Positions 1 to 61,845 of a stretch of DNA of 64,000 bases are shown here, one piece after another. The first letter of the stretch is position 1. Every line of letters begins with the position of its first letter. The notes beneath the pieces are model-generated. The model searched no databases, was not told where the DNA came from, and saw only the letters and a list, made by a program, of their open reading frames with translations. The stretch is from a virus, in IMG/VR virus record IMGVR_UViG_3300045988_174698; one strand, 5' to 3'. Both the position numbers and the translations under genes were made by a program.

Positions 1-1761
1 ATATATCCAGAATTAGAAGAAGGGTCTTCATTATATAATTTCTATAATAAATACAATTTAATATATGAAGATATAAATGGTAATATTAGACATGGAGATT
101 TAGAAGCCAAACTTGGTAAACCTAAAGAAGCTATAAAGGCTAGACAAGATTACTTTAAGTCTAGAAAAGAAATGGCTAATATCTGGCAATCTTTTGACTT
201 AGTTAGATTTATTACCGATCCAATCTACAAACAGGAAAGTATTGAAAAATATGAACAAAATAAGGTTAATTTTAATATTTTGGAAGTAATCAGTGCAGTT
301 CCTCATTTTAGAGAAATGTTTAATGTTCTTGCAATTAACAAAAGTGTTCTTAATAGTTTATCATCTAGAAATAGGTTAGAAGATATAATTCTAAACCAAC
401 TTAGTAGGAACTTTGCTGGAGTTCGTATGGATGTAAGCAAACCACTAAATAAACTTGAAATTAGAACTATAAAAGATCAGATAGATAAGTATCTTATTAG
501 ATCTTGGATTATTAGTAAAGGAATTGAAATAAATGTTCCCGCTAGTCCTAAGAATCCAGCTCCTTATATATTAAGATTGGATAATGAAAATAATATTAAC
601 AAGTTTAGAAGTTATGTTGAAAACTACGCTATTCCTTTATTAAAGGATAAGTTGAAAAATAATAAGTTTGTTCAGCTATTAACTTTTGGACTAAGACAAG
701 GAGTTCCATTCTATAAGCTACCACTTAACATGGTTCAAGTTGATAACACTCAGAAGACTAGGGCTTTATACGAAGAAGCATTATATGCTTTTAATAACCT
801 TAATAAGGTCAAAATAACTGGTATAGATATGAACTTAGTGGATATGTTTTATCTATATAACTTAGTTGTTAATCAAGATAAATTTGGTCCTAATTCTATG
901 ACTAGGATATTTGAAGACTTAGTATCATCTGGTAATGAAGATCTTCTTATATATGATTTTAATAATTGAATTGATAGTCAAAATATTGAAGACTTAGTTA
1001 ACAGATTTAGAACAGAAGAAAATAGTATTAGGTTTAATTTAGTAGAATCAACTCCTATTGTAGATGACACAAATTCTGATATTGGATTTAAAGAAACTCC
1101 TTTAGAAGAGGATATTGAAGAGGCTCAATATGAAGAATTAGCAGATAATCCTGTTAAAGAAAATAATGAAGTAGCTGAATATTATCAAACTAACCCTTCA
1201 ACTAAATCAAAACTTATAACAATAATTAAAGAATCTAATTTAAAAGGACTTCACATAGTTACAGATTCTGATTTAGTTAATGAAGATTCTACTACTAGAA
1301 ATGCTAGGGGATTTGTGAAGAATGGTGAAATCTATATTAATGTAGATAGAGCCGAAGATGATACAGTAGTCCATGAATTTAGCCATTTATATTTAGCAGA
1401 TGCTAAAGTAAATAGTCCTAATGAATACTATTCAGTACTAAGTAGAGTTAGAAATACAGGTACTTGGAAATATATGAGAGAGATACCTGAATATCAAAAT
1501 AAAAGAGGATCTGATTTTGATGAAGAGGTTCTAGCAACTTTAATTGAGCGAGCATATAATGAGGGATTAGGAGGAGCAGATTATGATGTTGCAATAGATG
1601 CTCTGAATCTTACATCTCCAGAATTTAAATCATTTATAAAATCTGATATTCTACCATCATTAGGAGAGACATTAATAGAGAATTATAAGGTATCTCAAAA
1701 GATAGCTACACTTAAAAATAAGCTCATCAAAGATAATATTATTAAAGAGGATTGTAAATAA
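1..1761 (+). CDS. Large hypothetical protein, 5'-partial (open from position 1); one in-frame TGA at 967-969 read as sense
   Basis: Frame 1 is open from nt 1 through ORFs 172..969 and 1315..1761. The only interrupting codon is TGA. It ends with TAA at 1759-1761, overlapping the next ATG (TAATG). Confidence 0.55.
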
Positions 1762-4700
1762 TGGAATGTACATATGAAACTACAATAAACGGTAAGAAGA
1801 TAAAGTTCAGCTCCGAAATGGAGCTGGACAACTTCTTATCAAGTAAATTAGCAGATTATCAAATAAACGAATCAGATTTAACTTTTCAAATTAATCCTAT
1901 AGATAGTACTATAGAGAAGGTAAATGCTATTACAAGTAAAGTTAAAAATGCTTCTATAGAATCTGTAATTATAAATGATGATGGAGATTCAGAAACTATA
2001 CTTAAGATTCCTGACTCAATAGGTACTACTAGATTTATTACATCTAATGGGGATCCTTCTAATATGCAAAAGGAATTAGTTCCTCCTTTTAACTTAAATG
2101 ATTTCTTAAAAAAAGAAAGAGAAAGATTAAGTGCAGAAGGAATGACTAAATCTCAAATTGATTCATATTTAGAAAAGTTACAAAAGTCTTGAACTCAGTT
2201 AACTGATTATGGTACTGAAATACATTCCTTATTTGAAAGTATTATTAATAATACTACATTCAAACCAACTAATTTGAGTGAAGAACAGGTATTACGTTTA
2301 ACTGAAGAATTTAAATCCTTTATTGAAGATATTAAATCTAAATATGGTAAAAATGCTAAAATCTTAACAGAAGTTCCTATAATATCAGATAAAATTCATG
2401 AAGCATATCAATCAGAAGGAATTAAAAGTATTAATGGTAGAATTGATATGCTAGTTATTGACCAGAGAGGATTTGCTCATATTTATGATTTTAAAGTTTC
2501 TAGAAAAGAAGTAGGAATATGAGAGGATACTAGAAACATACAAGGATCAACTACATGGCACTCTACTAAAAAACGTTCTGTGGGGTATCAGTTAGGAATA
2601 TATAAGAATATTCTAGCACAATATGGCATTACTGTAGGAGAAACAAACGTTGTTCCTATTAAAATAGATCCAGAATATAATGAAGATGGAACTATTAATA
2701 AGCTAAATGATGCTTATATTGATTTTACTAAAATAAAAGTAAATCCTAATGCTCCATATACAGAAACTATAAATACTATTCTTCCAGTAAAAACATTACT
2801 TGATGATATTGATCTTATAAACTCAATTCAGGAACCAATGACTAAATTTGTTCCTAATTATGCAGTAGAAACTCAGGTACAGAGAAATACAGTTACTGTG
2901 GATAAATACATTAATAATCCTAGAATTGTACACTATATTGATGACACTGACCCAGAACGAAAGTTTGGAAAATACTGAATTTGGAATAAATATAAGAAGA
3001 ATCGTAAAGTATATGCTAAAACAGAGGAGGAACTCAGAGAAAAAGTACAAGAATTAGTAAATGAAGAAAATAAACATATTCACTCTGAAATGTCTACCTT
3101 AGCGGATACCATTCAACAAATTATTGAAGGATATGGATCCATTGATGACTTAGCTGCTGATAACCCATTTAAGTCTGATTATTGTAAAAAGATATTTAGA
3201 AAATATTTAGTAAAAAAGAGTGAAACTGACTATGGATGAACTTTTCAAAATAATCCTAAATTTATAGCTGCAGGTATATTTGTATTTACTAAGGATGGTA
3301 AAATGGAAATAATATCTGTTACTCATAATGATATTCATTCAGTTGTTAATTTAGGTCTTGGCAAATCTATTCAAGGAGCAACTAAAAAGGATAGTGATAT
3401 TGATAGTCATGTAATAATGCAAGCATCTAACGGTAATATTGACCTTGTTAAAGTTATGTGTTTATTAAATAATATGCCTGAGGTACTTAAAGGATACAAA
3501 GTTAATAAAATAGAATCACATAATATTTGAATTCAAAAAGGTACTGAGACCTATTTAGAAACTCTTTTAGATAATTTTTCTGAATTATGCAGGATACATG
3601 GTATTACCAATAATCTTACATCTCAAAATTTTGCAACAACATTAGAAGCAGCTGTAAATATAATAAGAGATACTGCTGGTGAAGAATTACTATCTCACAT
3701 GGGTAATTGAGAATTTAATTTTAGTCCTAATGATATTGTAAATGGAGTTCCATTCATCTTGCAGAAAATGGAACAACTAAGAAAATTAAAATCTGCAGAT
3801 GGCCTTCGTACTGCTTTAAGAGAAGGCAAATGAAATTTTGATGATCCTATTCAGCTAGCATATATGTTATTAGGCAGAGCACTAAATAAACTTAACGGAT
3901 ACTCTATTTATATTGAACAAGATCCTAAATTGTGAGTAAATTTTTCTAGGGAAGGATGATACACTGGTTCATATGTGAATAGTGCTAGTAACTCTTCTTC
4001 TAAAAATATTCAAACATTAAGTAAAATATTTTCAGTAGCAGAAGCTCATATTAGAAGGAAAGAATTATCATACAAACCTAGGATTAGTAAAGTAGTTAAG
4101 GCTTTATATGAATACAATCACAGAAATAGACTTATTGGAGGTGAGGTTAAGTTTTTTGATAACTTATTTGTTAAGGATACAAACGGTAATATAGATAAAT
4201 CATTTAGACTAAAAAATCCTTCAGATAGTAGTTTGGCTAAGGAAGAATCTGACTTTATTAAGATGTTTCTAGAGATAGTAAATGATTTTAGATTTGATGG
4301 TAATCAAAGTAAAATAGCTAAAGCCATTGAAGACGGTTCTTACTATGAAGTTCCTGTTTCTATGGGAAGTACATCTACTCAAATCCACAATAAAGGATAT
4401 AAACAAGCCTTTACATCTAAATATAATGAAGCTTTAAACTTTCTAAAACTTCTTCCTGAACAAGAGCAACAATTTAGGGAATCAAAAGGAGAGCCAAAGG
4501 TATATAATAAATATAGATTAAATGGACTTAGTAGATCTGATTTAATTGAAAATTATGGGATAGATGGTCTAGAAACTCAACTTGAAGATTTGCTATTAAA
4601 TGTCATCCATACATACACAATGGAAGAAGTAATGAATGAATATCTTCCCAGACTTCAAGGTATTAAGATTGCCTTACAATATCAAACTGGGATGTTTGGA

Positions 4701-6161
4701 GTAGTTACTGATCATGTTTTAGAATATATAGATAAATTTATTGATGCTAACGTTTATAGTAAGCCTATTATGGCTAAAGAATTGCAAGGTGCATATAAGA
4801 TGTTATCTGTAGTTAAATCAATAACAACAGCTACCGCTCTCGGTTTAAATCTTAGATCAGGTATTCGAGAAATGATGCAGGGAATGTGAATACATCTAAG
4901 TAGAACTATGGCAGAAGCTTATGGAAAGGATCAGTTTACTAAAAAAGATGTTGCTAAAGCATGGGCTATTATATTTAAACAAAGTGTTAAAGATATTAAT
5001 ACTTTAACATTAATTGATGCCTTAAATGTGGATTATGGAATGGCTAACGCCGATCCCCATCAAGTCCAAGAGAGACTAAGTTCATCTAAAGCAGGTATTA
5101 AAAATTTAGATTCTGATTCACTATACTTCTTTAATAGAGTACCTGACTCGTATCATAGAATGGGATTATTAATTGCTAAGATGTTGCATGACGGATGTTA
5201 TGAAGCTCATAGTATTGTCAATGACCAACTTATCTATGATTTCAAAAAGGATAAAAGATTTAGTTTATTGTCTGATTCTAAAGCTGATAAGAATTCTATA
5301 GAGTATAAAAAGCAACATGCTTTATATACTGCTATGAGAGAACAGTTTAATAGAGAAGGATGAAATATCCAAGATGGAGATGATTTACCACGGGCTTATA
5401 CTATTCAAGAAGGAACTAGTATTAAATCGTTTGCGGAATTATGCTTTGGGCACTATGATAAAAGTACGCAAATGCTTATGAAACAAATGTTTCTAGGTGC
5501 TATGATTCTACAATTCAGAACATTCCTATCAGCTAAGTTTGAACAGTGGATATTAAAGCCAGATACTTATAATCAAGGTCAATACACTGAAAAATTTGAT
5601 GAAAATGGAGTAAGATATATTCGTATATTTACATTTGATGAAAAAGGAATTCCATCTGTTAGAATCGGTCTTGAAACAGAATTAAAACCTGATGATATTT
5701 GGGAACCTTACATTGAATGGCAAGGCAGATTTATGGAGGGAATTGCATATTCAATAATTAGTTTTGGAAAAACATTATACAAGTTAGATTTTAATGGTTT
5801 TAAAGAACTATGAAAAAATCCAACTAAAAGAGCTAATTTCTATTTATTCTTACATGATATGATCTGAATGTCTATACTTATGTGAATTGTTAAAGCTCTA
5901 TTTTTATCTGAAGAAGAAGATCTTGGACCTGTGGGTCATTTAGTAGGTACTTCATTATATACATCTTTTTCTGACGGGCCAATTACTAATATTATGGCTT
6001 CAATGTTTGGAGATTTAAATCCACCTATGCATAGCATAGTTGTGAACTTATATAGACAAACTTCTGGAATAATTACAGGAGATGTTAATTTATTTGATGC
6101 TGGTGTCAATTCATTTGGAGCATTAAATAGTTTAAAATATATTGGTGATCAGTTAGAATAA
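1761..6161 (+). CDS. Very large hypothetical protein (~1466 aa) with >=8 in-frame TGA codons; internal PD-(D/E)xK-like segment (IDMLVID...IYDFKVS)
   Basis: The ORFs starting at 1761, 2274, 2580, 3303, 3975, 4908, 5472 and 5931 all share frame 0 and are separated only by TGA. It ends with TAA at 6159-6161, followed by a strong terminator. Confidence 0.55.
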
Positions 6162-6228: not shown

Positions 6229-6735
6229 TTACTTGGGAATTAACACCATGTTCATTCTTTTACCTTCCAACTTTGGTTTAGATTCAACTTTAGCAATATC
6301 TTCAAGATCCGTAGTCAAACGTAACAAAAGAGATTCTCCCTGATCTTTAAACATAATTTCTCTACCTTTAAACATTATGTATGCTTTTACTTTAGCTTTT
6401 GAATTGATAAATTCTCTAGCATGTTTTAGTTTAAATTGATAATCATGTTCGTCTGTCTGTGGACCAAATCTTAGTTCTTTAACTATAACTTTCGCTTGAC
6501 CTGCTTTTAAGACTTTTTCCCGTTTTTTCTGTTGGTATAGAAATTTCTGATAATCTTGAAAAATACATACTGATACTTGGTTTTTATTGTTATCAATATA
6601 TACTGATAGTTCAATTAAATCAGTATTAGTATCTACAGCCTTCCTTAAAGCATCAGAAAGAGAAATTAACTCCCCGCTATCTTTTATTCTGATAATCTGA
6701 GAGTTAATTTCATAATTTATAGAGTAATTTTTCAT
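6229..6735 (-). CDS. infC: Translation initiation factor IF-3 homolog
   Basis: The C-terminal domain VKELRFGPQTDEHDYQFKLKHAREFI...IMFKGREI...KVESKPKLEGKRMNMVLIPK matches bacterial IF3 (KEIKFRPGTDEGDYQVKL...RFRGREM...MIMVLAPK). The N-terminal domain also aligns (DYQKFLYQQKKREK vs DYGKFLYEKSK). Confidence 0.85.
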   Translation of the reverse strand: MKNYSINYEINSQIIRIKDSGELISLSDALRKAVDTNTDLIELSVYIDNNKNQVSVCIFQDYQKFLYQQKKREKVLKAGQAKVIVKELRFGPQTDEHDYQFKLKHAREFINSKAKVKAYIMFKGREIMFKDQGESLLLRLTTDLEDIAKVESKPKLEGKRMNMVLIPK

Positions 6736-8839: not shown

Positions 8840-11462
8840 TTAAATAAGTTTTGCAGCTAATTTTGGGTTAAGTAATAGTTTATTACATTTACCAGGATAG
8901 TGTTTGTTTAGTGTTCTTACTAGGCTAAAGAGTAGATCTTCAGTTAACAATAACTTATCATTATCAACTATCCTAAGAATACGATCTATAATTAGGTCCA
9001 TTTTACACCCAGGTTTACTAAGATATAATAAGCTATAATTTATAAATCTAGTGGTAATTACAGAAGCTATATCGGCACGATACTTACCTTTATCATATAA
9101 TTGATTCTCAAGTATCCTTTTAATATCGTTCCAATCCGTATTAACTAGTTCTTCTGGGGAAGGAAGTTTATCTAATTTATTAGCTATGAATGTAGTAAAT
9201 AATCCCCCAACAATATCATCACTATCAAGAAAACATCCAGAAGCTATTTGCAGAATAAAGGATAAATTCTCAGGTTTAGACCAATCATCAATACTAGAAA
9301 TAGTATTAATAAACATAGTATAATTGCGAGCATTAATTTTAGACTGCCTAGATTTTGAACGGTCCATTAATTCATCACTATAAAGAAGCATAAAGTTAAT
9401 CGCCTGATTATTATACCCTTTTTCCTCGGCATATTTAGCCCAATCATATTTATCAAACTTAATATTAAAGTTTAACATACGGGTTTTTATAGCCTCATCA
9501 ATTTCTGTTACATTAAAATCTCCCCCTTCAGGATTAGCTGTTAAAATAACAGTACTATTAGGAGGTAATTTCCAAGAGAAATATTCTTGTCTTGATATAA
9601 GCTCCATAATAGCAGCCAATACAATTGGAGAGCTACGATTCACATCGTCAAGATTCAAAATTGTAGGTTTACTTAGATCAATACTTTTTATCCATTCTGG
9701 AATTGCATAGCTCATTCTAGTTTCCTCAGATATTTCCCAACCTGCTTTACTATAACTTTCTATAAGTTCTGCAGTTATCCATCTACATTCATCATTTTTA
9801 CATACATAGTGCTCTTTAATTGGCCACCCGCAAATTTCTCCTGGGTCTGAAATTTGACTAAGGTTTTTCTTGATGTAATTAGCACCAATTTCACTAGCTA
9901 TTTGTTCGATTAAACTCGTTTTCAATTTTGTTATCTCTAGAGCTTTTTATCTCTAGATTCTATATCTTCATATTCGATATAGTTCAGCATATCTTTTCAC
10001 CTCTAAAAATAGTAAGGTGGAGCACACTCGTGGGAAAATTATATTCTGTACAACAGGTTCATTTCCTATGCGTTGCACTGTAGCAAATCATTTAAATCTG
10101 CTATTAGCTCAGGATTAGCATCTCAGCCTTCCCTGAATTTGCGCTCTAATAATTTTAAAGATTTCTCTTTAAAACGGCAATCTTTGATTTTATTAAATAT
10201 TTGATATTTTCTATCTAAATAAATTGTTGATTTATAATATAGGTGATATAAGTAGGCAGTTGCCTTTATTCCCGAAAAACTAAATGCAAAAGTAAAATCG
10301 CTATGATTATTAGAAAACAAATGTCTAGGCTCTAAGTAGCTTACCATTTTACTTAAAAATTCTTTTGCACCTAAACAGCTTATTTCTGGTTTATCATATA
10401 ATCCTAATGACCCATCACCATCAAAATATCCTCTAATAAAATGTCTTATTAAATCTTTAGACTTAAAGATATTTTCATTAGGAAATTTTAAAGTCAGTGA
10501 CTTTTTAGGAGTACATCCGTAAGAATTTAATGTTTCTCATAAGTGTTTATTTGTTAGAGCAAATCTACATCTAAAATATTGCTTATTGTTACATATAATA
10601 GATGATATTTTTACTCTATTACCTGTTACTTGAAAAAACTTCTGTAATTTATATAAATGTTCCACATCAGATCCTTTTAAAGAAACTTCAAAATTATAAT
10701 GAGGTTTTCCATTTTTAGGAATTGAAGCAATATATCCATCAGCAAAAATAAAACCCAATCAATAAGCTTTTTCTTCGGTATCTATAATATCAAAAATGTG
10801 TTCATTAAATTTTAGCATATTTTGAGTATTAATAACTGGTATTCCAAGTTTCTTTAATCTAATAGAAAAATTGCTTCGACTAAATTTATATTTATTACTT
10901 ATTTGTGTTAGGCTATAACCATTACTATACATCTGCACTGCCTCTTCAAAGTAAGTATCTAAATTACTCTTTCGTATATTAATGTTATTATTATGAAGAA
11001 TAGTGGAAATAGTATTTCTGGATACATTATATAGTTTAGCTATATCACTACAAGTTTTACCCAAATTATATAGTTTACAAATATTAATTTTTTCAGATAA
11101 TATTAATTTACTACACTCTCTACAAAGAGAATTTCTATTAGCTACACGACTAACTGTAGTAGGATGTACTTTACAAATTTTACTTATATCTTTAATCTTA
11201 TAACCTTGATTATATAAATCAATAATCTTATTTTCTAAATCATTACTAATTTTTTGCATAATATTTAAATTTTAAATAAATTAAATCTATGCAAAAGTAA
11301 TAATATAAAACAATTTAATCAAATATTTTATAATAAATTACCTATACCAGGAAGTGAAGTAAGTTGAACACTTATTGGAAATTCTCCTCTTTCTTGGAGA
11401 GATCTATTATTGTTTATAATATATTTTAAAATAGGTTTTATTTCTCCTAATGTTAGTTCCAT
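8840..11462 (-). CDS. MoxR-like AAA+ ATPase, split by a group I intron: exon 1 at 11462..11340, exon 2 at 9922..8840 (~401 aa spliced)
   Basis: Exon 1 ends ...SLPGIG and exon 2 starts KTSLIEQIASEIG..., which reconstitutes the Walker A motif GIGKTSL. The ILTANPEGG sensor region is MoxR-like. The unspliced read-through hits a stop after 3 codons. Confidence 0.7.
9923..11339 (-). mobile_element. Group I intron (family R, copy 1) with LAGLIDADG homing-endonuclease ORF, inserted in the Walker A codons of the MoxR ATPase
   Basis: The 5' exon ends in T (GGT|) and the intron ends in G (...ACAAAATTG|). The 3' core (10130..9935) carries an S-like element GAAGATATAGAATC and blocks shared with four other loci. 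Confidence 0.65.
10123..11259 (-). CDS. Intron-encoded homing endonuclease: N-terminal repeated HTH modules plus double LAGLIDADG (GFIFADGYI, GYFDGDGSL); 3 TGA codons
   Basis: ORFs 10759..11259, 10537..10758 and 10123..10347 are in frame and joined by TGA (the TCA at 10759-10761 and 10537-10539 on the plus strand). Confidence 0.7.
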
Positions 11463-11467
11463 ATTTA

Positions 11468-12619
11468 TTACGGTATTAATACAGTTATTCCTGGAAACTT
11501 CTGAGATTTATTCCCATCAGATGTAATAATCCAGATTAAGTTTTTACAAGTTGAAAATGTAAATTTAGATAAGTAACCATCAGTAAATATCACACAAGAA
11601 CTAAATTCTTTGTGTTCTTTATAGAAGTCTAGAGCTGGGCAAACATCAGTACCTCCACGACCAATAAATTCAAATTTACTTTTTTTATCATATTTACATA
11701 TCTTAGTGATATTAGTATCACACTCTATAATTGTTATATCTACACCTGTTTTATATATATGATTAACTTCAGATATAAAATTAGAAAAGTCATTCATATT
11801 TATAGAACCTGAAGTATCAATAACAACACATATGTTTGGTTTTCTTTTTAAACGAGTTCCTCTAGCATCAGGTAATCTTTTTGAAGGTCTCATCCTAGTT
11901 AATTGTAGATCACTACTAATAGAATCTCCAACTACTCGTCTAAAATAGTTTCTCCAGTTAAAAACTGGAGGATTATTTCTTATTTTTTCAAGTATTTCTT
12001 TTAATTCTCCAGGTATGTGGCCTACTTGTTTATTAACAAGAGCTTCTGTTTCTTTTAACTTAGACTTTACTTGATTTTCATATAATTTACGTTCGGCTTC
12101 CGATATATCTTTAGGCCACATATCATGATTATCTATACTTTTAAAGTCGGCTAATCCTTCAGTACCAGGGATACATTTTTCAGGGTGTTCTTTAACAAAC
12201 TTTTGTATTTCATTATAATAATACCACGCCCCTCTATTGGGCTCTAGGTTCTTTCCAATTAACTTAGAAAGATTCTGTAAAGTAACACACCCATCAGGCA
12301 ATCCTGTAACTATTTGGTTCACAACTACATCTGTTGCTATATTCATATTATCATGATTATCTGCTTTGAAATCATCAGTAAGATGAAATAAACATATGTG
12401 TACTAACTCATGGGTGAGCACAGCAATACATTCAGTATCAGTAAGGTTATTCCAAAATGTTTCATTTACATATAATGTAAAATTGATACCATTAGGACCT
12501 ACAGCAGCTGTTTTTACAGGATGATTATCACTAACAATCTCCTTGCGTAGATTTAGCAAGAAAAGTCCATAAAAAGGTTGCTGAATAAGAAGCTCTTTAC
12601 ATGCTTTAATTAATTGCAT
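11468..12619 (-). CDS. VWA-domain protein with N-terminal HExxH putative metallopeptidase domain (MoxR partner)
   Basis: HELVHICLFH is an HExxH motif. The C-terminal segment VVIDTSGSINM is a MIDAS DxSGS motif. The gene sits directly upstream of the MoxR ATPase. Confidence 0.65.
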   Translation of the reverse strand: MQLIKACKELLIQQPFYGLFLLNLRKEIVSDNHPVKTAAVGPNGINFTLYVNETFWNNLTDTECIAVLTHELVHICLFHLTDDFKADNHDNMNIATDVVVNQIVTGLPDGCVTLQNLSKLIGKNLEPNRGAWYYYNEIQKFVKEHPEKCIPGTEGLADFKSIDNHDMWPKDISEAERKLYENQVKSKLKETEALVNKQVGHIPGELKEILEKIRNNPPVFNWRNYFRRVVGDSISSDLQLTRMRPSKRLPDARGTRLKRKPNICVVIDTSGSINMNDFSNFISEVNHIYKTGVDITIIECDTNITKICKYDKKSKFEFIGRGGTDVCPALDFYKEHKEFSSCVIFTDGYLSKFTFSTCKNLIWIITSDGNKSQKFPGITVLIP

Positions 12620-14154: not shown

Positions 14155-15069
14155 TTAATCGTTTCCATCTAATAAGTTTCTTTTAATAAACTCTTCTTTT
14201 AAAGGAATAGCTAGTTCCTGAGCCTGAGGATGAGCTGCTTTATCAGTTCTAAGTTTAAAGAATCCTCTCCACTGTTCAATAGTACCAGTCATAATTAATT
14301 CTGTTTTTGTGCACAATGGAAGAATTTCTCTAGCCTCTTGAGCTTTACAACCTCTGTTAATAAGAGCTTTATAATTCACTTCAGCTGATTCACACTGAGA
14401 TAAGAAAATGTCAACAGAGTCTCCTTCAAAATGTTTTAGTATGGTATTGGGAATATTATTTTTATCTGCAGCATCTACCCAATCGTTATCCCAATATTGA
14501 TATCTAGCCTCCTTTAAATCAGTCCAATAAGGAATAATAAACGTAAGTTCGTTATTAAATTTATCGGAATTGTAATTGCAATATCTTGTTGATTGTTCCG
14601 CAAATGATAACACGCGATGGCGACAAAACTCACGACTTATAGAAATTGGAAGAATAAACTTTACTGTAATTCGTTTTTCATGATATTCAGTAGGTTCACA
14701 GAGATGTTTTAAATCGTCAAGCCAGCCATTTTCATATAAAACTCTGTAATTAGTTGTGATATGATAATTACCATAAGAATCTGTATTAATAACTGAGTAA
14801 GAATTAGAAAGGTATTGTTTAATTACCCAATTATCACCTATTATATTGGAAGCATGATCCTTATGAATATAAAGATATACAGTGCCATGTTCAAGCATTG
14901 CGGTATGCTGTCTATCCTTAATCATATTAACAAACTTCTCTGCAGAATCTTCTGTAATACGATCCTCTGACTTATAACATGTTCTTCCTGCTCTTTCAAT
15001 TTGTTTATATATTCCTTGAATACCTGGCTCTTGTTCTAAAATTTCAAAACTACTTTTAATAAGTTTCAT
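14155..15069 (-). CDS. thyX: Flavin-dependent thymidylate synthase
   Basis: The ThyX signature RHRxxSxxxxSxR is present as FCRHRVLSFAEQSTRY. Confidence 0.8.
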   Translation of the reverse strand: MKLIKSSFEILEQEPGIQGIYKQIERAGRTCYKSEDRITEDSAEKFVNMIKDRQHTAMLEHGTVYLYIHKDHASNIIGDNWVIKQYLSNSYSVINTDSYGNYHITTNYRVLYENGWLDDLKHLCEPTEYHEKRITVKFILPISISREFCRHRVLSFAEQSTRYCNYNSDKFNNELTFIIPYWTDLKEARYQYWDNDWVDAADKNNIPNTILKHFEGDSVDIFLSQCESAEVNYKALINRGCKAQEAREILPLCTKTELIMTGTIEQWRGFFKLRTDKAAHPQAQELAIPLKEEFIKRNLLDGND

Positions 15070-15869: not shown

Positions 15870-16328
15870 TTATGTATTCATTTTATAAAACATTTGTATC
15901 TTTTCTTTCAAATCATATAGTATTGCTTTTTCCTGAACAGTATTTACAAATAGTTCGTACATATTATACTTTTCATCATTATATATTAACAACATATCAT
16001 TAATACTTACATCAATATAATTACCTCCTATATAATATCGTAATTTAAAATTAATATATGAATTATTACATTCATACTTAATATCTGTATAACATTCTGA
16101 AGCAATATTTAATAAATTATTAATAAAGTTCTTTGTATAAGATACAACCATTCTATTTGTAATTGGAATCCTACTCTTTGTTCGGTCTTCAATATTTCTA
16201 ATAACATCATTTACAACACTATCCCTTGCTATTATTGTAGCTTGATCTGATTCAATTTTACAAGTTCGAGATTGAAGATTAGAAACAAACAGTTGAATTT
16301 CTTTTAAAGTTAAATTTTCATCATTCAT
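15870..16328 (-). CDS. Hypothetical protein
   Basis: ORF track only. Confidence 0.35.
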   Translation of the reverse strand: MNDENLTLKEIQLFVSNLQSRTCKIESDQATIIARDSVVNDVIRNIEDRTKSRIPITNRMVVSYTKNFINNLLNIASECYTDIKYECNNSYINFKLRYYIGGNYIDVSINDMLLIYNDEKYNMYELFVNTVQEKAILYDLKEKIQMFYKMNT

Positions 16329-18662
16329 TAAAATAATTTTAATTGTTTATGCTTAAACATACATACGATTTTTTGTGCTGCAGCTATATAAAAAGAATAA
16401 TTAATATTAGATGGTAATTCATCAGATTTATTAATAGTATTCAAAATTGTTACGCCAGAGTCAGTTAATAGTTTAATATAGTTATATCGTCTACCATTAG
16501 AATCTATTTTACATTTATATAGCCATGGACCATCAGTAGATATATAATATCGGTTAATACGTTGAATTAACTGACCATCATATTCTACAGAATAATCTTT
16601 ACTAACTTTTTGATAAGTTATAAACTTATTAATATCCTTACAAGCATAAATAGTATCTGCAACAGGAATTCCATCTGCTAAACATTTATTAATAGCTTCG
16701 GGAATAATAACTGCATCCATACCTTTGCCAAGTTTTACCTTGTCGATAAACATACCTTTTGTCTTTAAAAGACTTGGATCTTTTGTTTCAGAATAACCTT
16801 CCTTAATTGCAAGATAGTCATTAATAGCAAACTGATACATTGCTTCAAATCTATCCTCTTCAAGAGTAAGTTTAGTTAAGATTTCCCAATTCTTGCAAAT
16901 TTCTTGTACATTGGTATATTTGTTTCGTTTTAATAGTACAAATAATCCATCAGTATTAGCTTGAATTATTCTACAACCTGCTTGAACTAATTTCTCCGCT
17001 AACATTAATAACATCAATTGTCCATTAATTCTAATTTGCATAACAGCATATGGAGAATAACAAAAATTATGTTCATTTTGTAGATTACCAGACAAACCGT
17101 TTAAAGCAAGTTTTAGAGTTTCATTCTTAACTTTATTTCCATTATGTTTAGCTTCTAATCGTTCATCTCGAATTTGAGAGTAAACTTCAAGGAATTCTTT
17201 ACCAAGATGTTTTGGATAAAATCCATATTGTATAATAATGCTAGGATATAGTGCATATCCATTTTAATTTTCGACTATATCTTAATTTTTATATCTAATT
17301 TGTTCTGAATTTAATTCAATGTAGTGTCATTTAAAGCCTTTATATGAAGCTTTTGTACCTTGACAACAACAATAAATGGATATAACCAAATTAAATTTAT
17401 AAAAATTCGCGGCGTTTCGAATAAAACCTTATAAAGTTTTATCCTACTCTCTTTCGAGATAGTCTGTGAACCTTGATCCTATAAGGATCCTTGGCTGCGG
17501 ATTATAATACTTATTAAGTTTTTACTTTCTCATAAGCGTTATCTTATGTGCTACACTATGTATTACTACTAGCTGCAGTATTAATAAGTTAAATTAAGTT
17601 CCCGCAATTAACCGCGTTTTACTTGCGCCACTATATTAACGCAACATCTATATCAATAAGCATTTCATCTTTTGTAGGTATAATTTCCTCAGGTTTATTA
17701 ACACTATGAATACCTCCAACTCCAACAGTATATTCTAATTCATCAAATATAAAATGTTTCTCATATCCTTTACGTCCAGGAGAAACTGTTTGCTTTTTCA
17801 TATCAGCTAATACACTTTTAAGTATAGGTGATTCAAACTCAATAAAAGGTAAAATAACCTCATTTAATGGAATTAAATCGCAAGGTGACCTCAAATCTTT
17901 AATTTGATTTCAGGTTTGTCCTGTTTTTTCAAGATACTTTTGAGTAATAATTTTCATTCCAATATTAACTCCATCTTTATTAAGTACCTTTACTCCATAC
18001 TCATCTTCAATAGCTATACGTAAATCAATATCCTTTTTACATCTATTTAATAATTCCTCAGTAGAATCAACATCATTAATATTATATTCTATCATTTTAG
18101 GAATTTCAGATACAGGAAGATAATCTTGGAAATCGCCTTCATATTCTTGAACATTTCGAAACTGCATAGTTACTTGCATCTCCTTTAACCCTACTCTCAA
18201 CTTTTGAGAATAAAGCATAGTTAACAAGTCTAATGTTTCAAAATAAATTTTATATTTCCACTTTGTTCAAGAACTAAAATTAGTATCAGTAGATTGAATT
18301 ATTAAATTACTAAGTTTAAATAAAGATGCGCATATCTCTGAATACGACATCTTTAACATTACTTTATGAAAATCAATAATATAATTAATAATAGGATTAT
18401 CATAATGAATATTATTGTATCCACAAAATATTTTATCTGTTTTAAACTGTAAGTTTGTAGTATAGTTTCTTTCTCAAATACCAATTTGAGATTGATTTCT
18501 AACAGTTCAAAATAAATCTACTAACTCTTGTAAATTATTCTTACGTTCAGATATTTCAAAAAATAAGCGTTCTCCTGTTTCTGTATTTTTTACAACACAG
18601 TGAAACACATTAGGAAATATTTCAATATCATAAACGTATACAGTTTTATTTCTAATTAACAT
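16328..18662 (-). CDS. Family B DNA polymerase (with 3'-5' exonuclease), split by a group I intron; exon 1 ~18662..17643, exon 2 ~17261..16328
   Basis: Exo I is VYVYDIEIF and Exo II is GYNNIHYDNPII. Motif A is split: the 5' exon ends ...DIDVA(L) and the 3' exon resumes (GYA)LYPSIII. Motif B-like KLALNGLSGN and motif C-like IIQANTDGLFV follow. The exons are in different frames and separated by a structured non-coding RNA. Confidence 0.65.
17262..17642 (-). mobile_element. ORF-less group I intron (Tetrahymena-like core) in DNA polymerase motif A; boundaries are approximate
   Basis: The minus-strand RNA contains AATTGCGGGAA (P), AATCCGCAGCCAAGGATCC (Q), GGTTCACAGACTATC (R) and TTAAGATATAGTCG (S), in that order. 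Confidence 0.7.
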
Positions 18663-19390
18663 TATACCTCATCATATGTAATTCTAAATATTTCAGGTTT
18701 GCAAGGATAAAATTCATTCCTAACTCCTCTGATAATATAATCTCCAACTGAAGCTTTCATTATACCTTCAAGAGTTGGAATTCCAAGCGAATAATCATTT
18801 TCTTCTTGTGTATTGTTATAACGCAAAAGTTGATTTCCGACAAACTCTTCAACTTCTTCAACATTATTTCCAATATACTGAATAGCCTCTATTTCTACAG
18901 GTTTTTTTCTATATTTCTTTATCATTTATAACGGTATATATTTTATTAAAATCATCTTCATTAATCCAAAATCTGTATCCGTTCCAGTTGCAATAAAAAC
19001 CATTTACTCTTTTATTCTCAGTATGCTGAACTTGCATTTTTAATATTTGATGATTATAATCAAATTTTGTCATTGGCTGAACTTCAACTTCGAGGTTTTT
19101 AACTTTTGCTTTCATTAAAACAAACTGCTAATCATCACACTTAAATATAACAAGTTATCTTGTAAAGCTATATTATTAAGCTCACATAGATTGTTATATA
19201 TCTTTATATAAAGTTTACAAATATTTAACATTTTCCTATTAATTTTAACCAATCTTCCTCTACAAAGTAAGACATTCAACCATATTGATCTAATCAACTC
19301 TCTTCATTAATAAGACAGGCATGTTCATTAAAGTCAGGATGTTCCATTAACTCCTGAGTATACGGTCATTCTACAATTACATATTTCACA

Positions 19391-24474: not shown

Positions 24475-27000
24475 TCAGCCGCAGGACATACAGCTTACAC
24501 ATCCTGAAGTAGCAACCAATGGTTCCCCACATTCTGGACATACGTTTTTATTATCATGATTGGCATTTATTGAAGGTTTTGTATCTGGAACACTAATCTG
24601 CTCTTTTTGAGGAATTTTTACATTATCTTTTATAGCTTCTGTAATTACTCTTGATATAATATCTGGGCATGACAAACCATCAATATTAATTTTTCTAGCC
24701 TTACATGTACTACAAGCAGGACAATTAATTCCTCTTATCTGATCAATTATCTCATCGACTTTAACACCACTTCTAAGATTAAGAGAAATTAATCTTGTTA
24801 CAGCATTCATGTTAGCTTGACAGATACCACCTTTAGATGTATGTGTGAACACTTCTACAAGATTACCCTTATTATCCTTATTGCAAGTTATATATAATGT
24901 TCCACATGCACATTTTTTACAAAAAGTTGCACCATGTGTTGTACCAAGTGTTTTGCGTGAAACTGGTGCAATGGAATCAAATTTGAAAGATTGTTTTTCT
25001 TCTTCAACTTTAATAGATTCCCCCATAATAGCTGGTCTACTATTTTCCCTAAATATCGTTAACCCTTTTAAACCAGCTTTCCATCCAGCTAAATATAATT
25101 TTTCTACATATTCTTGTGATGTATCTTTCTTAAGATTAATTGTAGAACTTATTGCTGTATCAATATACTTTTGTAATGCTGCTTGAAGCTTTATACGATC
25201 ATATGAATCAATATCATATGCTGTTACAAGAATATCATCATCTATAGAAGAATTAGGAACAGAATCAAGATATTCTTTTACAATTTTAGCATAAACATCA
25301 TATACCTTTTCTTCTTTATTAAGAGATACTGTTTTTCTCTGAAATTTCTTCATAAACAGGGGTTCCAAACCGCCCGATACTCCAAGCATAGTTGAAATTG
25401 ACCCAGTTGGTGCTATCGAAAGTAGTGAACAGTTTCTAAGACCAAATTTTTTCATTTTTTCAAGTTCATCGCTTGAAAAGGCTTCTTTCATTATACTAGA
25501 TTCAAATACCTTGTCTGAATAGCCAGGAAATGTTCCAAGTTCTTTAGCAAGATCATATGAGGTAAATACAGAATTTCTGAAAATAAGTCTCATAATATTT
25601 TCTGCAAGTTTTATCGACTCTAGGCTTCCATATTTAATATTCAATTTTATAAACATATCATGAAGTCCCATAATTCCTATGCCAAGGTTTCGGTATTTAG
25701 CAATTTGTTCTTGTTGTTCCTTAAGAGGGTGGTTATGAAGATTTTCATCTATAATCCTATCCATTTCCCTAACAATAATCTTTATATCTGAAACTAGTTC
25801 AGAATAATTAACTGTTGCAAATTTTGTAAAAGGATCTTTTACATATTCAGATAGATTTATTGAGGATAAGTTACAGGACATATTTTTTGGCAAAGGTTGT
25901 TCCTATATATTACCTATTTAGCTTTTTATCTAGATATTCTGGAAGTTTCCTTCATACTCTTTATTGCCATTAGAGATACGTCTGTCAATTCAGACCAGTT
26001 TAGCATATATTTTCACTATAAAGTGTTGGGCACTCTTGGTGGAATTATATTTATTCATCCACTATGCGTTACAATGTTTCATAGCCTATTCGTAATCTAT
26101 GAAATTATCTCGGTATTATCATGCAATAATTTGTTTAGACTTCACCGATTTTACCCAATTTTTTACATGAGGCAAACAATACAACTAACTGATAACCAGC
26201 CATTTACTACCACATGGATTACTAGTATCTATTTGATACTCAGTAATATACTCCATCAAATTATAATTTCTGAATCTATTCATAAACATGACTCCAGGCT
26301 CTGCATGTTCATATGCATTTTTCATCATAAGTTTATAAATTTCAATTGGAGTTATATCATAATCAGGATATCCCTTAAACTTAGATTTAATATGAAGGGT
26401 TATAACTTCTCCTGTCTCATAAAACTTATCTACGGCATTCATAAAGTTATCATCAACTTCCACAGAAAGGTTTGCATTATTGATCTTTCCAAGATTGCTT
26501 TTAATAGTTATGAAATCTTTTATTTGTGGATGATCTGCTGAAAGAGACATCATTAATGCGCCTTTACGTGATCCACCCTGAGAAACAGAAGCAGTTACAG
26601 TATTAAATATCTCCATAAATGGAACAATACCATCTGTTTCATATCCTGAAGAAAGTTTTGATCCTTTTGGACGAATATCAGATAAAGATAATCCTTGACC
26701 TCCCTGAGCTTTGAACGTTAATCCTATATTTTTTGCCGTTTGAAGAATATCATCAAGATTATCTGCAATTTTACCAGACGAGTAGCAATTTGAGTACGAA
26801 GCCTGTCTGTCTGTTTGTCTGTTTGATAGAGTTCTTCCTCCAAATAAGAACTTTTTAGCAACAATTAACTTTCTTAGTTCTTCATTTCCACCACTAACTC
26901 TATCAAACCACTCGTCTAAAGACTCATTATTATATCTATACTTTTTATTTCAAATATCAATTCCTAATTGATCATTATTAAGCCATTCTTCAACAGTCAT
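24475..27000 (-). CDS. Ribonucleotide reductase catalytic subunit (class II-like, C-terminal Cys-rich zinc ribbon), split by a group I intron: exon 1 at 27000..26199, exon 2 at 25912..24475
   Basis: The N-terminus reads ...VPFMEIFNTVTASVSQGGSRKGA. Exon 1 ends ...SNPCG and exon 2 starts EQPLPKNMSCNLSSINL, reconstituting NPCGE...CNLxSINL. PTGSISTMLGVSGGLEP and the C-terminal CPECG...C..C are also RNR features. Confidence 0.7.
25913..26198 (-). mobile_element. ORF-less group I intron (family R, copy 4) at the NPCG|E active-site codons of RNR
   Basis: The 5' exon ends TGT GGT| (T at -1) and the intron ends ...ATATAG| (G). It contains the family blocks ...AGCATATATTTTCAC..., CACTATGCGTTACAATG and CTCGGTATTATCATGC. 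Confidence 0.65.
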
Positions 27001-39101: not shown

Positions 39102-40753
39102 TTAGTCTATGTCCCCCTTATAGGCATTCATAATAGATTTTTCCTTTCTAAGCCAAGAGCCCTCAGTTTCTGCTATATCTAGAACAGTACGGCTAATAGA
39201 TTCTTCTTCTCAATTTTGTTATCGTATAGCTTTTTATCTATACTTCTTATACTTCATTTTGTATAAGCTCAGCATATATTTTCACCTTCAGCATTATCTG
39301 TTAAGGGTAAATCACTCGTGGGTTTATTTTATTCTAATCTGTTATTAATATTTTATAATTGTATATAGCGTTGTATACCTGTTTTGGAAGTATATTTTTA
39401 TATTTGTTAGCATATTCCTTTAAACAAGTTTCTTTCTCTTTCTTATATGCTCTAAATGCTTCTTCAATTGTAGAAAAAGTTCCTATATGTTTTTTCTTAT
39501 TCATATAATTAATTTGAGCAATTATTTTATTGTTTTTGATTCTGACTCCTATTGGAGTATTACCTCTACATTGAAATCTTCAAGTAATAGCAGTATTAAT
39601 TTCCTTTGGGATAAAACAACAATAATTTGGAGAATAAATTTTATTCCCCTTTACCAAGAAATCTTTATCTATAACAAATGATTCGTTATAACAATTATTA
39701 TAATATCAATCCGCAAAATTCTGAAAATTTAATCATTCTTTACAAACAGTAACTCCATTTCCTCCATAGTTATTATATTCAGAAACTTTTGGACAATAAC
39801 ATCTTCCAATCATTTCTTTCCAAATTTTATAACATCGAGTTTGTTTACCGTTTTTGTCCCTAGAACTATATTGACCTACTCCAAAATAACCTGTATTGTA
39901 TACAGACGGATAATAAGGATCTTTAACAGAGCCCTTTTTTAGATTACCTAGTTCAGCAGTAATAATAGTACCTGTTTGTAAAAATTTTATTATTACATTA
40001 TATGAATCAATATATTCTAGAATGATAAAATCTCCAGAACTATTTGAAGTCATAATTTTATTTTCATAAATTTGTTTGTTATTTGTCATATATCATAATA
40101 TTTTAATTAAACATAGTACAAATATACAAATTCTTTTTCAGACTCACAAACAAATTAGGTTCAAAACCTATGCGTTACACTGACTTAATATATTACTATT
40201 AAGTTTAGCACGGTATTAGCATCTCAGCCTTCACCGTTTTTGATTTATTCTATTCTACTTATTTCTAAGCAGACAGGCAGAATTCTACCTGCTCGTTCAC
40301 TAACATTCCTGTCTCTTTATCATGCCCGTTCAACCAGTTGAAAGTAGCCCAATCACCCTCATTAGCTGCCTGATCAACAATTTCATTAATCATTTGAGTA
40401 GTTTCAATTTCAAGATCTACGGTAATCTTAAAAGGATCTACCATATCTTCTACTTTCTTATCAAACTGCTCAATAGTAGGATAAATATACTCTGCATCGT
40501 TTTCATTTAAATATTTACGAATCCAGGAATGATGTAAGTATTCTTCATCTGCTCTTTGTTTGTAATACTCTTCAAGAATAACAAATCCTCTAACACCAAA
40601 GTAATTTGCAAAATTCATATACGCATTATGATTTTGCAATTCATGCTTAAGCTGACGAAGAAGTAGTTTTTGAATTTCAGCACTTAAAGTGCATTCACGC
40701 CTACTAACATCCTTTTTTTCTACAGGATCATTTGCCTCATTTTTAATTATCAT
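39102..40753 (-). CDS. Ferritin-like protein, split by a group I intron: exon 1 at 40753..40287, exon 2 at 39210..39102
   Basis: Exon 1 aligns to bacterial ferritin FtnA (E..EExH..., DWATFNWL vs DYPTFNFL) and ends ...VNEQ(V). Exon 2 EEESISRTVLDIAETEG... continues the FtnA C-terminus (EQHEEEKLFKSIIDKL). Confidence 0.65.
39211..40286 (-). mobile_element. Group I intron (family R, copy 3) carrying an AP2-domain endonuclease ORF between the 5' and 3' core halves
   Basis: The 5' exon ends CAGGT| and the intron ends ...ACAAAATTG|. The 5' half (40250..40130) has ...AGCATCTCAGCC... and ...CCTATGCGTTACACTG... blocks; the 3' half (39330..39250) has ...CACTCGTGGG...AGCATATATTTTCACC. Confidence 0.65.
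39342..40089 (-). CDS. Intron-encoded putative homing endonuclease with W..M..RC...YGG.G motif and C-terminal AP2 DNA-binding domain
   Basis: YKIWKEMIGRCYCPKVSEYNNYGGNGVTVCKEW, then GVRIKNNKIIAQINYMNKKKHIGTFSTIEEAFRAYKKE (AP2-like). Confidence 0.5.
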
Positions 40754-61824: not shown

Positions 61825-61845
61825 AAGTTAAAAAGATTTTTGTGT

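What the first reader, a model, noticed from the sequence alone, without database searches (positions are those of the whole stretch)
9923..11339. Mobile group I intron with a LAGLIDADG endonuclease inserted exactly in the Walker A (P-loop) codons of a MoxR-like AAA+ ATPase
- Exon 1 (11462..11340) ends ...LTSLPGIG and exon 2 (9922..8840) begins KTSLIEQIASEIG, so only splicing recreates GIGKTSL.
- The unspliced reading runs into a stop after 3 codons.
- The junctions obey group I rules (exon U at -1, intron 3'-terminal G).
- The 3' part of the intron carries an S-like element (GAAGATATAGAATC) and sequence blocks shared with four other loci in this window.
- The 379-aa intron ORF has helix-turn-helix repeats followed by two LAGLIDADG motifs.
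- Insertion into the most conserved motif of the host gene is the typical homing-site logic, but an intron in a MoxR/VWA system has not, to my knowledge, been described.
Basis: partly seen in the sequence, partly recalled or inferred. Interest (0 to 1): 0.7.

Follow-up and report, generated by a model that had tools for sequence, protein, structure and literature searches.

The report
Mobile group I intron splitting phage ATPase
A 1.4-kb self-splicing-type (group I) intron carrying its own homing endonuclease gene splits the ATP-binding motif of a phage ATPase gene. It is real and mobile, but it is one more example of the intron-rich crAss-like gut phages already described.

Summary
On the minus strand, exon 1 (11462..11340) ends ...LPGIG and exon 2 (9922..8840) starts KTSL. 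Removing 11339..9923 (1417 nt) gives a 401-aa AAA+ ATPase with an intact Walker A. A near-identical phage contig (99% identical flanks) has the gene uninterrupted. It differs from the predicted exon join at 2 of 1206 nt, with the junction at GGT|AAAACG. The insert has the helices of a group I ribozyme: P1 with a U•G wobble, P2, the P3/P7 pseudoknot, P4-P6, P7.1, P8, P9, P9.1 and a terminal G. Thirty family members support this: 95.7% of cells paired against 68.9% shuffled, and 40 of 48 pairs show compensatory changes. Rfam's group I model matches only below its threshold (24 bits, E=2e-4). The intron ORF (397 aa) has three HTH motifs plus two LAGLIDADG motifs, needs TGA=Trp, and overlaps the ribozyme from the guide sequence to P7. 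Three sister introns and one intron of another subfamily lie in the same window. The genome looks like a large, TGA-recoded crAss-like phage, a group already reported to be packed with group I introns, including in an AAA ATPase gene. Verdict: interpretation supported; a new member of a known kind.

The parts
11340..11462 (-). Exon 1 of the AAA+ ATPase gene (41 codons, ends ...LTSLPGIG; last base T = U at -1)
   Evidence: Identical to the first 123 nt of the uninterrupted gene in L001.
9923..11339 (-). Group I intron i1, 1417 nt, starts AAUUUAUU and ends GAUAACAAAAUUG (terminal G at 9923)
   Evidence: Absent from the 99%-identical contig L001, with breakpoints at 11338/9922. The family core is supported by covariation. 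Rfam RF00028 scores 24.1 bits, E=2.2e-4, on 9943..10160.
11335..11342 (-). P1 5' strand: exon GGU plus intron AAUUU; the 5' splice site lies after U at 11340
   Evidence: Pairs with AGAUU-G-CC at 10183..10176. The same helix, with the U•G pair, is in the minimum-free-energy fold of the ORF-less homologue L127.
11252..11296 (-). Hairpin in the P1 loop (UUUUGCAUA / UAUGCAAAA) that buries the endonuclease start codon AUG (11259)
   Evidence: Read from the sequence, with coordinates. An analogous hairpin covers the start codon in intron i2. A regulatory role is inferred only.
10066..11259 (-). Homing endonuclease ORF, 397 aa: three N-terminal HTH motifs plus two LAGLIDADG motifs (LGFIFADGY, IRGYFDGDGS); three in-frame TGA=Trp; stop UAG lies in the P7 5' strand
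   Evidence: code 4 translation. Pfam HTH_7 and LAGLIDADG_3 pass their cut-offs. phrog_4645 'endonuclease', E=1.9e-53. TGA positions.
10176..10183 (-). Internal guide sequence AGAUU-G-CC (P1 3' strand; G at 10178 pairs with the exon's last U)
   Evidence: Conserved as UU-G-CC-G about 30 nt upstream of P3 in i2, L127 and many IMG/VR relatives.
10153..10174 (-). P2 hairpin UUUUAAAGA-GAAA-UCUUUAAAA
   Evidence: The equivalent hairpin has a different sequence in i2 (UCUCUAAAA/UUUUAGAGA) and in relatives, and is predicted in L127.
9936..10146 (-). Ribozyme core: P3 (10146-10141 / 10025-10020), P4, P5, P6, P7 (10071-10067 / 9991-9987, pseudoknotted with P3), P7.1, P8, P9, P9.1
   Evidence: Helix coordinates. 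Covariation: 95.7% of cells paired vs 68.9% shuffled, 40 of 48 pairs with changes on both sides, slid controls 32-45%. RNAalifold independently finds every helix except the pseudoknotted P7.
9923..9935 (-). Conserved 3' tail GAUAACAAAAUUG ending in the terminal G (3' splice site)
8840..9922 (-). Exon 2 of the ATPase gene (360 codons plus stop, begins KTSLIEQ)
11468..12619 (-). Context: upstream partner gene, metallopeptidase-like DUF2201_N plus VWA-like DUF2201 (383 aa)
   Evidence: Pfam. The same gene order is seen in all related contigs.

Best explanation
Window 11339..9923 (minus strand) is a mobile group I intron of IA-like topology, with a P7.1 hairpin between P7 and P3'. It sits between the Gly41 and Lys42 codons (GGT|AAA) of the Walker A motif of an AAA+ (AAA_5-type) ATPase gene. 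The genome is a roughly 166-170 kb, TGA-recoded, crAss-like gut phage.

Proposed mechanism, steps inferred:
1. The pre-mRNA folds so that exon GGU plus intron AAUUU pair with the guide sequence AGAUU-G-CC, which lies 1.16 kb downstream. This forms P1, with the endonuclease ORF looped out.
2. P2 to P9.1 form the catalytic core.
3. A free guanosine bound at P7 attacks after U(11340).
4. The terminal G (9923) then takes its place and the exons are ligated to GGU-AAA. This restores GIGKTS and the 401-aa ATPase.

The intron ORF encodes a single-chain double-LAGLIDADG endonuclease with three N-terminal HTH motifs. Its translation needs TGA=Trp decoding. In mixed infections it would cut intron-less alleles near GGT|AAAACG, and recombinational repair would copy the intron in (homing).

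Shown here: exact excisability; presence/absence polymorphism; a covarying group I core; the endonuclease domains. Inferred: splicing in vivo; endonuclease activity and target.
For: 1. Exact excision restores the gene. Exon 1 plus exon 2 differ from an uninterrupted 1206-nt gene in contig L001 at only 2 synonymous positions, and the junction is identical. The L001 flanks are 99.2-99.8% identical to the window, and the alignment breaks exactly at the insert.
2. Occupancy is sporadic. At least 24 contigs carry the interrupted allele. Ten of the 120 best homologue clusters are N-terminally short forms of the kind an interrupted gene gives. Of these, two distant ones (58-59% identical) and the 100%-identical exon-2 form were checked and have the same intron at the same site. 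One of the distant ones is a 291-nt ORF-less derivative that keeps the guide sequence, P2 and the core.
3. Structure. Forty-eight pairs in P3, P4/P5, P6, P7 (pseudoknot), P7.1, P8, P9 and P9.1 were counted on 30 sequences. 95.7% of cells pair, against 68.9% in shuffles (0 of 500 shuffles reach this) and 32-45% in slid controls. Forty pairs show compensatory changes. RNAalifold recovers the nested helices, 44 of 49 pairs compensatory. The minimum-free-energy fold of the ORF-less homologue gives P1 with U•G at the splice site, z=-5.3.
4. Rfam RF00028 matches the i1 core (24.1 bits, E=2.2e-4), the sister intron i4 (23.3 bits, E=5.6e-4) and a fifth intron (37.8 bits, E=4e-8).
5. The ORF hits HTH and LAGLIDADG models and phrog_4645 'endonuclease'.
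6. Removing each of the three sister introns restores a conserved motif: a helicase Walker A, RNR NPCGEQ, and a ferritin-like domain.
7. Context matches published intron-rich crAss-like phages (PMC7886860; primase hits).
Against: - No RNA-level data: splicing and endonuclease activity are not demonstrated.
- Rfam scores are below the family's gathering threshold of 50 bits. They appear only when the search is limited to the candidate region and are absent from the whole-window scans.
- The exon side of P1 is only GG plus the U•G pair, and P10 is 2 bp in i1.
- An alternative guide G at intron position 29 scores slightly better in i1 alone. It is not conserved in the ORF-less homologue.
- P7 is almost invariant, so covariation says little about it.
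Confidence: 0.92

Rival explanations
1. A dead or non-splicing insertion: an intron remnant or endonuclease cassette has simply inactivated a dispensable ATPase gene.
For: Splicing is not shown. Rfam scores are sub-threshold. P1 and P10 pairing to the exons is short. The sister intron i2 has an endonuclease ORF split over two frames, so decay does occur in this genome.
Against: Both exons stay open and are virtually identical to the intron-less allele. They also stay open in homologues only 58-59% identical that carry the intron. Core helices are kept by compensatory changes. The ORF-less derivative retains precisely the RNA elements needed for splicing. The ATPase is conserved in hundreds of related contigs.
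Confidence: 0.04
2. A split gene: a free-standing endonuclease gene separates two ORFs that are translated separately and assemble as two polypeptides, as in some T4-like phage genes split by mobile endonuclease genes.
For: Gene callers report a 44-aa and a 361-aa ORF. Exon 2 begins right after a possible TTG start.
Against: The break falls between the invariant Gly and Lys of one P-loop, which is unlikely to work in two pieces. The 361-aa ORF has only a TTG that is part of the intron tail. The insert carries about 330 nt of conserved, covarying non-coding RNA that a mere gene insertion does not need. The ORF-less 291-nt version still interrupts the gene.
Confidence: 0.02
3. Another kind of intervening element: a group II intron, an intein, or translational bypassing.
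For: None beyond the bare fact of an interruption.
Against: The insert is not in frame and has a stop after 3 codons, so it is not an intein. No Hint domain or reverse transcriptase was found. There is no group II intron hit in Rfam. The helix order and the P3/P7 pseudoknot are those of group I.
Confidence: 0.01

Closest known systems
Group I introns of crAss-like phages (Delta and Zeta groups; Yutin et al. 2021, PMC7886860)
   Same: Gut phage of about 166-170 kb. TGA recoding. Many introns per genome (at least five in this 64-kb window). Introns sit in replication genes, including an AAA ATPase, primase-neighbourhood genes, the DnaB helicase and RNR. Endonuclease ORFs lie inside the introns. 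The primase's best annotated relatives are Crassvirales.
   Different: That study detected introns through endonuclease domains; the passages I read gave no insertion site or RNA structure. I could not show that this ATPase is orthologous to their ATP_43b: BLASTP against a crAss-like CbbQ/NorQ-type ATPase gave only E=0.25. Assignment to the Zeta group rests on size, recoding and intron density, not on a TerL or MCP tree.
Phage IA-type group I introns with homing endonucleases (T4 td/I-TevI, nrdB, nrdD; SPO1 and Twort introns). Comparison from established knowledge, not tested here.
   Same: Phage mRNA intron in a nucleotide or DNA metabolism gene, inserted at a catalytic motif. Extra P7.1 hairpin between P7 and P3'. 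The endonuclease ORF is looped out of the ribozyme. Mobility by homing. ORF-less and ORF-containing versions coexist.
   Different: The endonuclease is LAGLIDADG with three HTH motifs, not GIY-YIG or HNH. The ORF lies in the P1 loop and its last 38 or so codons overlap the guide sequence, P2 and P3 to P7. The ORF needs opal (TGA) read-through as Trp.
P-loop inteins of replicative ATPases (Novikova et al. 2016, PMC4760082; found by literature search)
   Same: A selfish element with a homing endonuclease targets the most conserved ATP-binding motif of helicases and ATPases.
   Different: Those elements splice at protein level. This one is an RNA intron with stop codons in the host frame.

Membership tests
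Group I intron | The last 5'-exon nucleotide is U and forms a U•G wobble with the internal guide sequence in P1 | tested here: met
   Exon ...GGU with U at 11340. GGU|AAUUU pairs with AGAUU-G-CC at 10183..10176. The same helix is in the minimum-free-energy fold of the ORF-less homologue L127. This is in silico evidence only.
Group I intron | The intron ends in G (omega G) | tested here: met
   G at 9923; all four family copies in the window end in G.
Group I intron | Conserved core in the order P3-P4-P5-P6-P7-P3'-P8-P7'-P9, with a P3/P7 pseudoknot | tested here: met
   95.7% of cells paired and 40 of 48 pairs compensatory on 30 sequences; shuffled and slid controls are far lower. RNAalifold agrees for the nested helices.
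Group I intron | Match to the Rfam covariance model RF00028 at its gathering score (50 bits) | tested here: inconclusive
   24.1 bits, E=2.2e-4, on 9943..10160 when only 246 nt are searched. No hit in the whole-window or 1.9-kb scans. The 1.1-kb ORF separates P1 from the core.
Group I intron | Precise removal restores the host reading frame and a conserved motif | tested here: met
   The exon join equals the uninterrupted gene in L001 apart from 2 synonymous differences. GxGK is invariant in homologues.
Group I intron | Guanosine-dependent self-splicing | not testable with these tools
   Needs in vitro transcription and splicing, or RNA data.
LAGLIDADG homing endonuclease (single-chain, double-motif) | Two LAGLIDADG motifs, each ending in an acidic residue | tested here: met
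   LGFIFADGY (residues 168-176) and IRGYFDGDGS (residues 273-282). Pfam LAGLIDADG_3 scores 29.6 bits (cut-off 22.5); LAGLIDADG_1 scores 19.0, below its 23.1 cut-off. phrog_4645, E=1.9e-53. No solved homologue found by sequence.
LAGLIDADG homing endonuclease (single-chain, double-motif) | Site-specific cleavage of the intron-less allele | not testable with these tools
   The candidate target is the L001 sequence around CCTGGTATAGGT|AAAACGAGTTTA.
MoxR-type AAA+ ATPase with VWA partner | AAA+ domain of the MoxR family proper (Pfam AAA_3) | tested here: not met
   AAA_3 scores 19.8 bits against a cut-off of 27. AAA_5 (25.5 vs 22) and AAA (24.1 vs 21.2) pass. The best solved match is a midasin AAA domain, E=1e-6. 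'AAA_5-type AAA+ ATPase' is the better description.
MoxR-type AAA+ ATPase with VWA partner | Adjacent gene encoding a VWA-domain protein | tested here: met
   The upstream gene 12619..11468 has DUF2201_N (metallopeptidase-like) plus DUF2201 (VWA-like). The pairing is conserved in related contigs.
crAss-like phages (Crassvirales), Zeta-like | Phylogenetic placement by TerL, MCP or portal | not tested
   Indirect evidence only. The best annotated primase hits are Crassvirales at 33% identity. Related contigs are 155-170 kb. TGA recoding and intron density fit the published description.

The most novel reading that the evidence does not exclude
This intron belongs to a widespread phage lineage of group I introns whose ribozyme recognises little more than exon GGU through an invariant G-CC guide, often with AAA at the start of the 3' exon. 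That would let the lineage settle repeatedly at Gly|Lys junctions of P-loops in unrelated NTPases. In this window the targets are an AAA+ ATPase and a DnaB-like helicase; elsewhere the reading frames look like terminase-type and other Walker A motifs, though those host genes were not identified. Spread might occur by reverse splicing as well as by endonuclease homing. Endonuclease expression would be gated by the phage's TGA-to-Trp recoding. That would make it an RNA counterpart of the P-loop inteins.
Probability: 0.25. Interest if true: 0.55.

Novelty: new member of a known kind. Interest (0 to 1): 0.35.

Why it matters
For annotation, the ATPase, the helicase, the RNR, the ferritin-like gene and the DNA polymerase in this window are each one gene interrupted by an intron, not fragments or pseudogenes. 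The genome also has to be read with TGA=Trp.

For biology, the locus gives a clean natural 'before and after' pair: intron-plus and intron-minus genomes that are 99% identical. That pair defines a candidate LAGLIDADG homing site. The locus also shows an endonuclease ORF that overlaps the ribozyme core, and an ORF-less descendant of the same intron.

The wider intron family (more than 70 copies in IMG/VR phage contigs) shows a leaning towards P-loop codons that I did not find described for group I introns. The general phenomenon of intron-dense, recoded crAss-like phages is already published.

Tried and rejected
- Rfam at the gathering threshold and at E<=10 or E<=1 on the whole window and on 9700..11600 found no group I hit. 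Sub-threshold hits appeared only when the search was restricted to the core.
- I first took the guide sequence of i1 to be the G at intron position 29 (UAAAUU-G-UUUUAU), which scores best in i1 alone. I rejected it because it is absent from the ORF-less homologue L127. The UU-G-CC-G site next to P2 is conserved in i1, i2, L127 and many relatives.
- I first read the hairpin UUUUGCAUA/UAUGCAAAA as P2. It is now placed in the P1 loop, as a hairpin covering the ORF start.
- A megablast of the locus against GenBank phages gave only one weak hit, to the endonuclease gene. A tblastn of the ATPase gave only 22-30% identical hits, so no annotated close relative exists in that collection.
- BLASTP against a crAss-like CbbQ/NorQ-type ATPase was not significant, so orthology with the published ATP_43b is unresolved. 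A second comparison failed on coordinates.
- PDB sequence searches gave no LAGLIDADG homologue and only midasin for the ATPase.
- The idea that i1 and i2 are recent duplicates was rejected. Their cores are 71% identical and their endonucleases 41% identical, with only short 96%-identical patches.
Full report
**1. Observation**

On the minus strand, a 44-codon ORF (11462..11328) reads MELTLGE...LTSLPGIG and then N-L-L-stop. A 361-codon ORF (9925..8840) reads (M)KTSLIEQIASEIG... Joining 11462..11340 to 9922..8840 gives an in-frame 401-aa protein containing GIGKTS. Exon 1 ends in T and the intervening 1417 nt end in G.

The intervening ORF (11259..10066) is open for 397 codons only if three TGA codons are read as Trp. 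All three Trp positions of this ORF are TGA, one of them in the typical ...AYW-LGFIFADG context. The ATPase exons use TGG eight times and never TGA. The window as a whole uses TGA=Trp in many genes; a 1466-aa plus-strand protein has 14 of them.

**2. One gene, polymorphic for the insert**

A search with the predicted spliced protein found 325 homologues. Most are uninterrupted proteins of about 401 aa. One cluster, P0001, is 100% identical over 100% of the length.

- The intron-less allele. P0001's gene lies on a 166-kb metagenomic contig (L001). It differs from exon 1 plus exon 2 at 2 of 1206 positions, both synonymous, with the junction GGT|AAAACG intact.
- The flanks. L001 is 99.2-99.8% identical to the window over 12 kb, and the alignment breaks exactly at 11338/9922.
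- Reciprocal polymorphism. L001 carries about 1.2 kb of extra DNA in the ThyX region that the window lacks.
- The interrupted allele. An exon-2-only protein, P0018, is found on at least 24 contigs.
- Conservation of the site. G39, G41 and K42 are invariant in 13 uninterrupted homologues down to 50% identity. The break is therefore inside the Walker A motif, immediately before the catalytic Lys.
- Distant carriers. Homologues only 58-59% identical also carry an insert at the same site. L129 has a related endonuclease ORF. L127 has a 291-nt ORF-less version. That version keeps the last roughly 60 nt of the former ORF, which are exactly the part that forms the guide sequence and P2.

**3. The insert is a group I intron**

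BLAST and motif searches found three further copies of the same core in the window:

| Intron | Coordinates (minus strand) | Host gene and site | Intron ORF |
|---|---|---|---|
| i2 | 34707..33269 | DnaB-like helicase, again splitting the Walker A, SSVG\|KSS (Pfam DnaB_C on the spliced product) | LAGLIDADG ORF split over two frames |
| i3 | 40286..39211 | Ferritin-like gene | HNH-type endonuclease ORF (phrog_953) placed in a different hairpin |
| i4 | 26208..25903 | Class II ribonucleotide reductase at NPCG\|EQPL (Ribonuc_red_lgC continuous across the join) | None (306 nt) |

All four follow an exon ending in GGT.

A pattern scan of IMG/VR followed by nhmmer recovered more than 70 significant relatives in phage contigs. 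I aligned the four window cores with 26 of these (A1) and tested a manually derived structure. The result was 48 pairs in P3, P4/P5, P6, P7 (pseudoknotted with P3), P7.1, P8, P9 and P9.1.

- 95.7% of cells pair, against 68.9% in shuffles; 0 of 500 shuffles reach that value.
- Controls with the partner slid by 1-3 columns give 32-45%.
- 40 of the 48 pairs show changes on both sides.
- RNAalifold, run blind on the same alignment, returned the same nested helices, with 44 of 49 pairs compensatory.

The helix order, and the extra hairpin between P7 and P3', are those of subgroup IA. That assignment is by topology only.

The minimum-free-energy fold of the natural ORF-less homologue (z=-5.3) adds P1. 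There, exon GGU plus intron AAUUUU pair with AAAAUU-G-CC, and the exon's last U lies opposite G. It also adds P2. In i1 the equivalent guide sequence AGAUU-G-CC is at 10183..10176, followed by P2 at 10174..10153. The endonuclease ORF therefore lies in the P1 loop. Its last 38 or so codons overlap the guide sequence, P2 and P3 to P7, and its stop codon is the UAG in the P7 5' strand.

Rfam's Intron_gpI model matches the i1 core at 24.1 bits (E=2.2e-4) and i4 at 23.3 bits (E=5.6e-4). Both hits appear only in restricted searches and both are below the 50-bit threshold. There were no hits in the broad scans. I treat this as supportive but not decisive. The covariation and the exact excision carry the argument.

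**4. The ORF**

Pfam finds two or three N-terminal HTH motifs (HTH_7, HTH_23, HTH_38) and LAGLIDADG_3 above its cut-off. The two motifs are LGFIFADGY and IRGYFDGDGS. PHROGs places the protein in phrog_4645 'endonuclease' (E=1.9e-53), so the HTH plus LAGLIDADG architecture is already represented among phage proteins. No solved homologue is detectable by sequence.

**5. The host gene and genome**

- The ATPase matches Pfam AAA_5 and AAA above their cut-offs but not AAA_3, the MoxR family proper. It also matches phrog_1297 'ATPase', and its best solved match is midasin.
- The upstream neighbour is a DUF2201_N/DUF2201 protein, metallopeptidase-like plus VWA-like. 'AAA_5-type ATPase with a VWA-like partner' is accurate; 'MoxR' is loose.
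- The window is a replication module. It holds a primase, a DnaB-like and an SNF2-like helicase, a Dda-like helicase, a DNA polymerase, RNR, ThyX, a dNMP kinase and exonucleases.
- The primase's best annotated relatives are Crassvirales.
- Related contigs are 155-170 kb.

[quoted passage not shown] I could not establish orthology with ATP_43b.

**6. Mechanism**

The best-supported reading is RNA self-splicing that restores the Walker A, plus endonuclease-driven homing into intron-less genomes during co-infection.

- Shown: exact excisability, presence/absence in near-identical genomes, sporadic distribution, a covarying core, the endonuclease domains, and an ORF-less derivative.
- Inferred: catalysis, the endonuclease target, and any regulatory role of the start-codon hairpin or of TGA-dependent translation.

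**7. Novelty**

This is a new member of a known kind. Some details are worth recording:

- two of four sister introns split the same Gly|Lys junction of unrelated P-loops;
- the family-wide GGU/G-CC pairing;
- an excess of Lys-Thr/Ser at the start of 3' exons, 8 of 55 non-redundant members against a 0.8% hexamer background, with several more having GK[ST] a few codons downstream.

A literature search found the P-loop preference described for inteins but not for group I introns. The census is rough: splice sites were extrapolated and host genes were not identified.

Noticed in passing
window 17259..17647 (-): A fifth group I intron, ORF-less and from a different subfamily (Rfam RF00028 37.8 bits, E=4.3e-8). 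It lies between an ORF matching the N-terminal half of a DNA polymerase (17631..18683, phrog_1252) and the next ORF (16328..17263), so the polymerase gene is probably split too.
   Followed up: partly
window 33269..34707 (-): Sister intron i2 splits the Walker A (SSVG|KSS) of a DnaB-like helicase at the same Gly|Lys junction as the ATPase intron. Its HTH part and its LAGLIDADG part are in different frames, so the ORF is probably decaying.
   Followed up: partly
window 39211..40286 (-): Sister intron i3 sits in a ferritin-like gene (NEQV|EEE). It has the same ribozyme scaffold but an unrelated HNH-type endonuclease ORF (phrog_953), inserted in the P7.1 loop rather than the P1 loop. This points to independent endonuclease invasions of one ribozyme lineage.
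   Followed up: partly
window 25903..26208 (-): Sister intron i4, 306 nt and ORF-less, sits in a class II ribonucleotide reductase at the active-site motif NPCG|EQPL. It has a clear P10 (GAACAA/UUGUUU).
   Followed up: partly
window 10412..10491 vs 33815..33894, and 10026..10074 vs 33359..33407: Introns i1 and i2 are only about 71% identical in the core and 41% identical in the endonuclease protein. They nevertheless share 80-nt and 49-nt patches at 96% identity, which suggests patchy gene conversion between paralogous introns in one genome.
   Followed up: no
whole window; e.g. 1758..6161 (+): TGA is read as Trp in many genes: 14 TGA in a 1466-aa protein, and 13 TGA against 1 TGG in the three intron ORFs. 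Other genes, such as the ATPase exons, use only TGG. None of the 7 tRNAs in the window is an opal suppressor.
   Followed up: partly
window 61842..62263 (-): A tmRNA gene (Rfam RF00023, 52.3 bits, above the gathering score) lies next to a cluster of 7 tRNA genes (55.6-61.0 kb) in a phage genome. ARAGORN did not call it.
   Followed up: no
window 6229..6735 (-): A phage-encoded homologue of translation initiation factor IF3 (Pfam IF3_N and IF3_C, both above their cut-offs).
   Followed up: partly
window 14307..14653 vs L001 1923..3156: The contig that lacks the ATPase intron carries about 1.2 kb of extra DNA in the ThyX region, and ThyX is called in pieces in L001, L005 and L007. Intron content therefore differs reciprocally between 99%-identical genomes.
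   Followed up: no
IMG/VR loci L008-L126 (family members): Eight of 55 non-redundant relatives have 3' exons starting Lys-Thr/Ser, against a background of 0.8%. Others have GK[ST] within a few codons, for example GRKNG|KTE and G|KPKAGKS. Where the 5' splice site is visible, the 5' exon ends in GGT and the guide is G-CC. This suggests a P-loop bias in this intron lineage.
   Followed up: partly
window 9943..9950 and 9923..9935 (-): The P9.1 loop AUAAAAAG (motif GAUAAAAAG with the closing stem base, mostly invariant in 30 sequences) and the 3' tail GAUAACAAA are strongly conserved. I found no pairing partner; a tertiary contact or P9.0 role is unexplained.
   Followed up: no
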